A stretch of 64,000 nucleotides of DNA from a virus. Within the stretch, counting starts at the first letter, position 1. Each line of letters opens with the position of its first letter. Shown here piece by piece: positions 3,280 through 8,136 of the stretch. A program made the translations under genes and the position numbers. The notes beneath the pieces were generated by a model that ran no database searches, was not told where the DNA came from, and worked only from the letters and a program-made list of their open reading frames with translations. Location of the stretch: IMG/VR virus record IMGVR_UViG_3300032272_000002, positions 32,001-96,000 of that record. One strand, written 5' to 3'.

Positions 3280-3862
3280 AGTAGACAGATATCTTGGCAG
3301 GGTGTACGAATCCCTGCCGGAAGCTGGCGTACAGTTTGCCCAGATTCCTTGGGCTCTCATATCACTGGCGACCTTTGGCTTGGGCATGTGGACACTGTAC
3401 GGAGGCGGCCCCGAAAGGGGGCTCACGTCGGCCCACGCACTACTCTGGGTTTTCATTGTGCTCGACGGCATCATGCTGTCTATTCTGGCACTAGCGTCCT
3501 TCGGGCACGCCTTTATCTCTGCAAAAGACCCGGTTGCGGGAGATAAGGTCCTATTTACTAGCGAATACAGGTCAAATTGGCTGAGTAAGTTTACTTCCTA
3601 CACTGATGCACCGTTGATGCTTGTTTTAGCAGTCCTGGCGTCCTGGCCAGTAGCTATCTTTGCCCTCTCTCTCCTGCTGGGTGCAGAGTGGATGGGAAAG
3701 TATATCCATAAGAACAACAAGCAGGAACGTCGAAATGAATTGGCAAAAATGGATGAGGCCGAGCTTCACGCACTCTTCGCTACTGATGAAGAGGAAGAGG
3801 CTGTTGGCAGGGATATTGACGATCTGTTGAAAGAATTTGAGAACTTTCAGGGGGATCTCTAA
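3257..3862 (+). CDS. hypothetical membrane protein
   Basis: 3-4 hydrophobic segments, acidic C-terminal tail. Confidence 0.7.
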   Translation: MMNSQNDKVDRYLGRVYESLPEAGVQFAQIPWALISLATFGLGMWTLYGGGPERGLTSAHALLWVFIVLDGIMLSILALASFGHAFISAKDPVAGDKVLFTSEYRSNWLSKFTSYTDAPLMLVLAVLASWPVAIFALSLLLGAEWMGKYIHKNNKQERRNELAKMDEAELHALFATDEEEEAVGRDIDDLLKEFENFQGDL

Positions 3863-6559: not shown

Positions 6560-6633
6560 GGGCACGTAGCATTGTGGAATGCAGCCGCCTCTAAAACGGT
6601 AAGAAGCGAGTTTGACTCTCGTCGTGCCCTCCA
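6560..6633 (+). tRNA. Amber suppressor tRNA (anticodon CTA)
   Basis: GGGCACG/CGTGCCC-T-CCA acceptor; GCAT/ATGC D stem; loop CT-CTA-AA; GCGAG/CTCGT T arm. Confidence 0.85.
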
Positions 6634-6673
6634 TTTTCACTTGACAACCACAACCAGCGTGGTAGGGTGTAGT

Positions 6674-6952: not shown

Positions 6953-7227
6953 CAATTGGATATGTAGAAGGGCCAGTAATGTCAATAAGTTTTGGAATTG
7001 ATTATGTTGAATTTGACGTTCGTGCCATTGGGCAATTTAGCAACGCAGCTAAGCGAGTACGCTGTATCGCCCCCATTAATTTTAAAAGCGTTATAAAATT
7101 GAACAATGAAGTCAGCATCAGCGGCACAGTAGAACATGAGGACACGCCGAGCGGAGTTTTCTCACGTATTAGAGTCACCCGCGTTGAACGAGTGACTAAT
7201 GAATTTCTGCTCAGCGGAGCATTGTAG
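6949..7227 (+). CDS. OB-fold-like small protein with C-terminal FLLSGAL motif
   Basis: Similar pattern to the previous ORF; GTGA coupling. Confidence 0.7.
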   Translation: MTIGYVEGPVMSISFGIDYVEFDVRAIGQFSNAAKRVRCIAPINFKSVIKLNNEVSISGTVEHEDTPSGVFSRIRVTRVERVTNEFLLSGAL

Positions 7228-7251
7228 TGTACTATTAATTGGAGACATAAA

Positions 7252-7563
7252 ATGACCTAGACTCACTATTTTATTCTTGTTAGAAAAGATTTACCCCTCT
7301 CCCAGCAACTTGTGCAAGCCTCGCACGCAGCTTATGAAGCTGGGAAGAAAGATAGCGGCCCGGATATTTTATCTGTGGCAATGTGTGAGACACCCTCGGA
7401 AGACCAGCTACTAGCTGAGGCCGACAGGCTCGAATACTTAGGTATTAAATATACTCTCTTCCGAGAACCTGATAGAAATAACGAGGCCACCGCTCTATGT
7501 ACGGAACCTCTTTCTTCGCAGCAACGTAAGCGGCTCGCCCGCTGGAAGTTATGGGAGGTCTAA
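7252..7563 (+). CDS. Peptidyl-tRNA hydrolase Pth2-like protein with in-frame TAG at codon 3
   Basis: GGAG SD, then ATG ACC TAG ACT ... YFILVRKDL...QLVQASHAA...FREPD...TAL; in frame with ORF 7312-7563. Confidence 0.75.
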
Positions 7564-7565
7564 TC

Positions 7566-7592
7566 ATGTTGTAGACAGCAAGACCACCCTAA
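7566..7592 (+). other. Minigene M-L-(TAG)-T-A-R-P-P-stop
   Basis: GGAGGT SD at 7554-7559; ATG TTG TAG ACA GCA AGA CCA CCC TAA. Confidence 0.5.
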
Positions 7593-7654
7593 GTAATATC
7601 TGTTTCTGTTTTATTTACTGTTACACTTTAAACAAACAAAAAGAGATAGATATT

Positions 7655-7948
7655 ATGAAAGAACTGAAAGAACTAATCAAAACGCTCGCCGCCGAGCAGA
7701 TCGAATTGAAAGCTGGCCGTAAGACGGGATCGAATCCCGGCTATGAGAAACGCTGTGCATCTAATGATGCAGCCAGCAAAGTCCGTCGTAACAAGCCGAA
7801 GATTACTGCGGCACATAATCTGATGCATGAGCTTCGTGGCTCTGATTACCAGCATAACCTTCCCGATGATTGGGATTGGCTCTATTGGTACAGAAAGGAC
7901 ATGGAAGCCTTGCGTGCAGAGTTTGCGGTTGAGCCCGCAACAGAATAA
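7655..7948 (+). CDS. hypothetical protein
   Basis: ORF after an AT-rich leader. Confidence 0.65.
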   Translation: MKELKELIKTLAAEQIELKAGRKTGSNPGYEKRCASNDAASKVRRNKPKITAAHNLMHELRGSDYQHNLPDDWDWLYWYRKDMEALRAEFAVEPATE

Positions 7949-8108: not shown

Positions 8109-8136
8109 TTGACACACGCTGAGAGCGTGTTACTAT
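8109..8136 (+). promoter_or_regulatory. sigma70-like promoter with inverted repeat in the spacer
   Basis: TTGACA...TACTAT; ACACGC-N5-GCGTGT. Confidence 0.7.

What the first reader, a model, noticed from the sequence alone, without database searches (positions are those of the whole stretch)
7225..7592. Pth2 gene gated by an amber codon at position 3, next to a phage amber-suppressor tRNA
Seen: a GGAG SD, then ATG ACC TAG ACT CAC TAT TTT ATT CTT GTT AGA AAA GAT TTA (M-T-*-T-H-Y-F-I-L-V-R-K-D-L), continuing in frame to 7563. The conserved Pth2 N-terminal strand (VRKDL) lies upstream of the only alternative start (GTG 7312), so a full enzyme requires TAG readthrough. A tRNA with CUA anticodon lies at 6560-6633. 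Known: very short minigenes (lambda bar) cause peptidyl-tRNA drop-off that Pth must clear. Inference: a translational switch in which Pth2 is made only when suppressor tRNA outcompetes RF1, or a sensor of termination/peptidyl-tRNA stress. TAG stays a normal stop elsewhere in the window, so this would be local programmed readthrough rather than genome recoding.
Basis: partly seen in the sequence, partly recalled or inferred. Interest (0 to 1): 0.85.

Follow-up and report, generated by a model that had tools for sequence, protein, structure and literature searches.

The report
Amber-locked phage operon with suppressor tRNA
A large standard-code phage keeps a deliberate UAG stop as the third codon of a tRNA-hydrolase-like gene, and another in a tiny leader that controls the next gene, beside its own UAG-reading tRNA; over a hundred distant phages share this design, which gives the unexplained stop-reading tRNAs of such phages a concrete, testable target.

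Summary
Observation confirmed: SD GGAG, ATG 7252, TAG as codon 3, open frame to TAA 7563, CUA tRNA at 6560-6633. The genome uses the standard code. The stop is conserved: 113 of 134 diverged homologue clusters, including cultured jumbo phages, have ATG-(0-7 codons)-TAG with no rescuing ATG; other open frames show this in 1.7%. The CUA tRNA travels with the gate. One relative has a TAA gate and a UUA tRNA; RaK2 lacks both gate and tRNA. The read-through product has the Pth2 fold (Z 14), but the Lys/Asp/Thr catalytic set is altered, so hydrolase activity is unproven. A second gate follows: leader M-L-amber-T-A-R-P-P-stop, then a hairpin that hides the start of a conserved 97-aa gene; 40 of 48 clusters with that gene have such a leader. 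Best reading: a two-gene module switched on when the phage's suppressor tRNA outcompetes RF1, probably feedback on termination. No experiment exists, and I found no paper describing it. This scan has noted the same system on other DNA (38 notes, at least 33 genomes).

The parts
6560..6633 (+). tRNA with CUA anticodon (amber suppressor-type, encoded CCA, discriminator U); ARAGORN's 'Pyl' label follows from the anticodon only
7241..7244 (+). Shine-Dalgarno GGAG of the gated gene, 7 nt before ATG
7252..7563 (+). Pth2-fold gene, 103 aa if codon 3 is read through
7258..7260 (+). Gate 1: in-frame TAG at codon 3, with Thr before it and a purine after it
7554..7559 (+). SD GGAGGT of the leader, inside the 3' end of the Pth2-fold gene
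7566..7592 (+). Gate 2: leader M-L-amber-T-A-R-P-P-stop (TAG 7572-7574, TAA 7590-7592)
7593..7656 (+). Predicted mRNA hairpin that pairs over the ribosome-binding site and start codon of the 97-aa gene
7655..7948 (+). 97-aa three-helix protein of an unnamed family (motif IT-A-x-LN-x-Y-H-E-x-RG-x-x-Y-RH) that travels with the module

Best explanation
A local amber-readthrough switch. The phage uses the standard code but encodes one UAG-reading tRNA whose conserved targets are two deliberate UAG codons. At gate 1, ribosomes start at ATG 7252 and normally stop after Met-Thr; when charged CUA tRNA outcompetes host RF1 they make the full Pth2-fold protein. At gate 2, read-through of the leader's UAG carries the ribosome onto A-R-P-P-stop, where it slows or stalls, melts the hairpin 7593-7656 and frees the start of the 97-aa gene. 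Both proteins are therefore made only when UAG is read through. Shown by sequence: both gates, their conservation, the tRNA link, the fold and the hairpin's pairing potential. Inferred: read-through in vivo, stalling, and purpose. Most likely purpose (about 0.45): feedback on termination, in which slow RF1 action turns on a tRNA-ester hydrolase and a helper that clear peptidyl-tRNA or stalled ribosomes. Next (about 0.25): the hydrolase deacylates the suppressor tRNA itself and so limits read-through.
For: Gate in 113 of 134 clusters (83 of 101 at 70% identity), on both sides of the deepest fork of a quick, midpoint-rooted tree, against 1.7% background. Present in cultured phages ME3, BF, GAP32, fHe-Yen9-03, RsoM2USA, Xoo-sp13, XacN1 and RAS14, all of which encode a CUA tRNA. 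CUA tRNA in 86 of 113 gated clusters and 52 of 61 with a locus of 15 kb or more; it is the only tRNA in 39 of 42 single-tRNA loci. Swap: L071 has a TAA gate and a UUA tRNA. Loss: RaK2 has an ATG after the TAG and no CUA tRNA among 9 tRNA matches. Reverse test: 29 of 95 CUA tRNAs found by a DNA pattern have a Pth2-like gene on the same strand within short fragments. Of 32 ungated homologues, 15 lie behind an amber-PP leader and none behind a TAA or TGA one. Context: Thr before TAG in 54 of 113 (background 5%), purine after it in 108 of 113 (57% at ordinary TAG ends). Leader: amber-R(x)PP near the gene in 34 of 134 clusters against 1 TAA and 2 TGA. Window hairpin z -4.4; RBS pairing 0.91 against 0.40 in shuffles. 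A relative's copy changes mostly silently: 21 of 29 altered codons are synonymous.
Against: No expression, proteomic or ribosome data. The CUA tRNAs share no acceptor-stem identity (discriminator A 54, G 27, U 23, C 4), so whether and with what they are charged is open. The canonical Pth2 catalytic residues are altered. About 13% of clusters have an ATG that bypasses the gate, most with a CUA tRNA nearby. The window's leader ends in ARPP, not the proven RAPP or RGPP. The RBS-pairing test passed in only 19 of 40 leaders. The swap and the loss are one case each in my data, and the L071 record is 65% complete. Clusters are related, so the counts overstate independence.
Confidence: 0.78

Rival explanations
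1. The gates are real but act as a timer or lock rather than a sensor: the tRNA builds up during infection and unlocks proteins that would be harmful if made early.
For: Proposed for recoded lysis and structural genes (10.1101/2021.08.26.457843). In XacN1 and Xoo-sp13 the tRNA lies over 100 kb from the gene.
Against: The tRNA is usually within 2 kb on the same strand (72 of 111), which leaves little delay. The targets are translation-related and the second gate needs a Pro-Pro leader, which suits feedback better. This rival shares the mechanism of the best explanation and differs only in purpose.
Confidence: 0.2
2. The gates open through general termination failure or near-cognate host tRNAs; the CUA tRNA is an uncharged decoy or probe and is not the decoder.
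For: No conserved synthetase identity in 108 CUA/UUA tRNAs. The window's tRNA has a C-A mismatch at the base of the anticodon stem and an atypical T loop. No class II synthetase core (PF01409) found in the 83%-complete genome.
Against: Intact cloverleaf with CCA and a conserved Y-U-CUA-A-A loop. The anticodon follows the gate codon in L071. From established knowledge, amber suppressors are often charged by GlnRS or LysRS through U35, so variable acceptor stems are tolerated.
Confidence: 0.1
3. M-T-stop is a lambda-bar-like minigene, or a coupling device for re-initiation at a downstream start such as GTG 7312; no read-through is needed.
For: TAG at codon 3 in 70 of 113 clusters fits the drop-off-prone zone. 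ATT or GTG follows the TAG in 31 of 111. In mycobacteriophage IkeLoa a GTG directly after the TAG has a usable SD.
Against: In the window the next codon is ACT, and GTG 7312 has no SD and truncates the fold. Only 2 of 106 gated clusters have an alternative start with an SD at usable spacing. A minigene would not need to be in frame, or TAG-specific, or matched to an anticodon.
Confidence: 0.06
4. Sequencing error, pseudogene, or a genome recoded to code 15.
For: Only contigs, not raw reads, could be laid.
Against: The same TAG in over 100 diverged lineages and in isolate genomes. Mostly silent change in a relative. No code-15 signature in this genome or in 85 long flanking loci.
Confidence: 0.02

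Closest known systems
Stop-codon-recoded phages with suppressor tRNAs (code 15, TAG=Gln; 10.1101/2021.08.26.457843)
   Same: A phage-encoded CUA tRNA is proposed to switch on genes that carry in-frame TAG.
   Different: Here the genome is standard code and TAG ends many genes. The in-frame TAGs are one per target, at the very start of a gene or in a leader, and the targets are translation-related, not lysis or structural genes. No release factor was found.
Pth2 peptidyl-tRNA hydrolases (PF01981; AF2095, MJ0051, human Bit1); PTH2 in jumbo phages noted in PMC7824862
   Same: Same fold (Z 13-14, TM up to 0.80) and the RxDL...QxxHA motif.
   Different: Below Pfam's cut-off; Lys is replaced by Gln, the DAG-x-T loop by E-P-D; gated by UAG, which PMC7824862 does not mention.
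RAPP/RGPP arrest-peptide attenuators (SecM, ApcA, ApdA, ApdP; PMC12992588)
   Same: Short upstream ORF ending in an Arg...Pro-Pro motif, in front of a structure that hides the next gene's RBS. RGPP or RAPP in 25 of 40 relatives.
   Different: The motif is reached only after UAG read-through, only 2-9 codons from the start region. The window's motif is ARPP-stop. No secretion link.
prfB (RF2) autoregulation at an in-frame UGA; Streptomyces bldA tRNA gating of UUA genes (established knowledge)
   Same: An early in-frame codon makes expression depend on competition at that codon or on one dedicated tRNA.
   Different: prfB uses a +1 frameshift and no dedicated tRNA; bldA reads a sense codon. Here a stop codon is paired with a co-encoded suppressor tRNA.
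Lambda bar minigenes (established knowledge)
   Same: SD, start codon, one sense codon, stop.
   Different: Here the stop is in frame with a long conserved gene and is matched by a cognate tRNA.

Membership tests
Pth2 (PF01981) | Pth2 alpha/beta fold | tested here: met
   Model pLDDT 88; Foldseek TM 0.80 to 3erj; VIA Z 14.1, rmsd 2.1 over 101 residues, next unrelated fold Z 4.6
Pth2 (PF01981) | Pfam gathering score of 23 bits | tested here: not met
   18.1 bits, E 0.0032
Pth2 (PF01981) | N-terminal RxDL...QxxHA motif | tested here: met
   R11, Q22, H25 invariant in 82 sequences
Pth2 (PF01981) | Catalytic Lys / Asp / Thr set (Lys18, Asp86, Thr90 in archaeal numbering; from my own knowledge, source paper not held) | tested here: not met
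   In the profile alignment to MJ0051, Lys pairs with Gln, Asp with Glu, and the Thr-bearing loop is a gap; Gln in 99 and EPD in 108 of 134 clusters. Based on sequence alignment, not on a residue-level superposition.
Pth2 (PF01981) | Hydrolyses peptidyl-tRNA | not testable with these tools
   needs an enzyme assay
Code-15 recoded phage | In-frame TAG in many conserved genes, with a large gain in coding density | tested here: not met
   Density 0.807 (code 11), 0.852 (code 15), 0.816 (code 4); the longest genes have no TAG
Code-15 recoded phage | Phage-encoded CUA tRNA | tested here: met
Code-15 recoded phage | Phage release factor (in some members) | tested here: inconclusive
   No PF00472 match, but the record is 83% complete
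tRNA-Pyl / pyrrolysine system | tRNA-Pyl shape (6-bp anticodon stem, 3-nt variable loop, one base between acceptor and D stems; own knowledge) | tested here: not met
   Ordinary cloverleaf with two linker bases and a 5-nt variable loop
tRNA-Pyl / pyrrolysine system | PylRS present | tested here: inconclusive
   No PF01409 match in the 83%-complete record; host unknown
RAPP/RGPP arrest peptides | C-terminal RAPP or RGPP (PMC12992588) | tested here: not met
   Window leader ends ARPP-stop; relatives have RGPP 20, RAPP 5, RSPP 5 of 40
RAPP/RGPP arrest peptides | Upstream ORF in front of an RBS-hiding structure | tested here: met
   Hairpin 7593-7656, z -4.4; 0 of 30 shuffles pair the RBS as well
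RAPP/RGPP arrest peptides | Measured ribosome arrest | not testable with these tools
   needs toeprinting
Lambda bar-type minigene | Stand-alone two-codon ORF with no coding role beyond the stop | tested here: not met
   A conserved 100-codon frame follows in frame

The most novel reading that the evidence does not exclude
A dedicated phage sensor of translation termination: an orphan suppressor tRNA acts as a probe that competes with host RF1 at two purpose-built UAG codons, one of them wired in series with a Pro-Pro stall and an RBS hairpin. The outputs, a Pth2-fold enzyme with a remodelled active site and an unnamed helical protein, feed back on peptidyl-tRNA, stalled ribosomes or the suppressor tRNA itself.
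Probability: 0.4. Interest if true: 0.9.

Novelty: new variant of a known kind. Interest (0 to 1): 0.78.

Why it matters
Suppressor tRNAs in standard-code phages have been reported without targets. The XacN1 paper states that it could not identify genes targeted by its CUA tRNAs (PMC5852040), yet XacN1 carries M-K-amber just upstream of, and in frame with, its annotated ORF364. This module supplies a conserved target, explains why the gene is unannotated or truncated in GenBank records, and can be tested in cultured phages. If confirmed, it is a natural suppressor-tRNA-gated switch, a possible stepping stone towards full amber recoding, and a pointer to a Pth2-fold subfamily with different chemistry.

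Tried and rejected
Raw reads: only Logan contigs were available and no RNA holder was listed. Run X2 covers 7252-7602 with no listed difference before 7282, but 4 of 39 differences are unlisted, so it does not prove the TAG. An exact leader pattern in viral contigs gave 0 matches; leaders conserve the design, not the letters. The 97-aa protein had no match in phage records, Pfam or PHROGs and no clear fold match in PDB or the Atlas; this shows neither novelty of fold nor function. L002-L006 were spurious hits and were dropped. The HD-like partner found in other phages has no match in this genome. No Pth1 or release factor was found in the 83%-complete record. Fusion with the upstream ORF through TAG 7225 was rejected: the next upstream in-frame stop is TAA 43, TGA 33, TAG 26 across relatives. 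The careful tree did not finish; the quick tree is used only to show spread. Nine literature searches found no description of the gate (bear on it); subscription journals are not covered.

Full report
Observation. The window is part of a 169,742-bp linear phage record, 83% complete, with 28 tRNA genes. The sequence is as described: GGAG 7241-7244, ATG 7252, ACC, TAG 7258-7260, then an open frame to TAA 7561-7563. The CUA tRNA is at 6560-6633. Read through, the 103-aa product matches PTH2 weakly (E 0.003); the 83-aa product from GTG 7312 matches nothing and has no SD. The genome is not recoded: 29 of 162 long ORFs end in TAG and the largest genes contain none. A second assembly, possibly of the same sample, agrees letter for letter.

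Conservation of the gate. tblastn found 43 phage records, and in many of them no gene is annotated over the match. Their 5' ends show why: M-T-amber in Acinetobacter phage ME3, M-T-H-amber in Serratia phage BF, M-A-Q-amber in GAP32, M-S-H-amber in fHe-Yen9-03 and M-L-amber in RsoM2USA. In Xoo-sp13, XacN1 and RAS14 the domain is fused behind an HD-like domain, and the amber sits at the start of the fusion. Over 181 loci in 134 clusters at 90% identity, 113 have a start codon followed within 8 codons by TAG and no rescuing ATG; 70 have it at codon 3. The same pattern occurs in 1.7% (TAG), 1.2% (TAA) and 2.3% (TGA) of 4648 other open frames in these loci. None of 85 long loci looks recoded. Only 2 of 106 gated clusters have an alternative start with a usable SD. 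The stop's context is also biased: Thr before it in 54 of 113 and a purine after it in 108 of 113. Thr is depleted before real stops across bacteria, although that study found no effect of C-terminal Thr on expression in Mycoplasma (PMC7246954). That a 3' purine favours amber suppression is my own recollection.

Link to the tRNA. A CUA tRNA is in the locus for 86 of 113 gated clusters (52 of 61 long loci). It is the nearest tRNA in 72 and the only one in 39 of 42 single-tRNA loci. All eight gated cultured jumbo phages checked encode one. Among other viral records searched whole, several gave none, including two complete ones where my pattern found no CUA tRNA (G001, G011; not all matches could be inspected), so the link is strong but not shown to be absolute. 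Two natural controls: L071 has TAA at the gate and a UUA-anticodon tRNA, with no CUA tRNA in its 104 kb; Klebsiella phage RaK2 has an ATG after the TAG and no CUA tRNA. Starting instead from 95 CUA tRNAs found by a DNA pattern, 29 had a Pth2-like gene on the same strand within fragments of 1-15 kb, 13 of them directly gated. The tRNAs conserve the anticodon loop but not the acceptor stem, so the inserted residue cannot be predicted. Position 3 lies just before strand 1 of the model, so almost any residue should be tolerated (inference).

The protein. The model (pLDDT 88) matches archaeal and human Pth2 at Z 13-14 and the uncharacterised Atu0240 at Z 12.4, far above unrelated folds. In the profile alignment to MJ0051 the catalytic Lys falls on Gln, the Asp on Glu of an E-P-D motif, and the following Thr loop is absent; this holds across the family. 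The identity of those catalytic residues rests on my own knowledge. The protein is a Pth2-fold subfamily with its own invariant residues (R11, Q22, H25, D74). It probably acts on tRNA esters, but is not a proven Pth2.

Second gate. Directly behind the gene, GGAGGT 7554-7559 precedes M-L-amber-T-A-R-P-P-stop (7566-7592). The next 64 nt fold into a hairpin that pairs over the RBS and start codon of the 97-aa gene (z -4.4). By standard ribosome footprints (inference), a ribosome ending at UAG 7572 would not reach the hairpin, whereas one paused on the prolines or the following UAA would cover its 5' arm. Amber-R(x)PP leaders lie within 1.5 kb of the Pth2-fold gene in 34 of 134 clusters, against 1 TAA and 2 TGA versions. 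Of 48 clusters carrying the 97-aa family, 40 have an amber-PP leader upstream (RGPP 20, RAPP 5, RSPP 5); in 19 of them the RBS pairs with the post-PP sequence better than in at least 27 of 30 shuffles. RAPP and RGPP are proven arrest cores (PMC12992588); ARPP-stop is not. Fifteen of 32 homologues without a direct gate lie behind such a leader, so the amber control can move within the operon. The 97-aa protein is a three-helix bundle with no identified family.

Mechanism. Both genes should be on only when UAG is read through, which I put at 0.78. The purpose is less certain. Slow RF1 action would open both gates and supply a tRNA-ester hydrolase when peptidyl-tRNA and stalled ribosomes build up, the same logic as prfB autoregulation (about 0.45). 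A homeostat in which the enzyme deacylates the suppressor tRNA would explain how a genome with many TAG ends tolerates a suppressor (about 0.25). A timer is about 0.2.

Novelty. No held paper contains PTH2, phage, suppressor, tRNA and stop codon together. The jumbo-phage survey lists PTH2 without any amber feature, and the XacN1 paper found no target for its CUA tRNAs. I class this as a new variant of suppressor-tRNA-controlled phage translation. This scan has noted the same system on other genomes many times. Those notes are unchecked; my score rests on the tests above.

Noticed in passing
L013, L015, L016: gene starting about 3315-3321: In fHe-Yen9-03, GAP32 and BF, the HD-like gene downstream of the gated gene is split by an internal TAG (D-x-G-amber-G-D), and is annotated as a 46-aa ORF; the homologue is intact in ME3 and fused to the Pth2-fold domain in Xanthomonas phages (PHROG 14850).
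   Followed up: partly
L180, L181, L182, L183 (genome contigs): The gated gene, in two cases with a CUA tRNA about 800 bp downstream, occurs in Gemmataceae/Planctomycetota MAG contigs, one 1.6 Mb long; prophage or chromosomal status not checked.
   Followed up: no
L018:2930-2976: In mycobacteriophage IkeLoa a promoter-like TTGACA...TACCGT ends 6 nt before ATG-TAG-GTG, so the mRNA may be leaderless and begin AUG-UAG; alternatively GTG is the true start.
   Followed up: partly
L017, L044, L062, L081, L090: Some homologues have a TAG inside the domain, 25-37 codons after the RxD motif, with or without the early gate.
   Followed up: no
window 6952, 7227 and genome-wide: Many small ORFs end in F-x-L-x-G-A-L-stop; a pattern count gave 29 in the genome (TGA 17, TAA 7, TAG 5), including the two ORFs between the CUA tRNA and the gated gene.
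   Followed up: partly
window 6641-6670, 7206-7234, 8109-8136: Promoter-like sites near the tRNA cluster appear to carry short inverted repeats in the spacer between the -35 and -10 hexamers (seen by eye; 8109 listed).
   Followed up: no
L275, L299, L304, L331: The Pth2-fold domain is fused behind a helical N-terminal domain, in most cases preceded by an amber-PP leader; in L275 that domain resembles the 97-aa family by eye.
   Followed up: no
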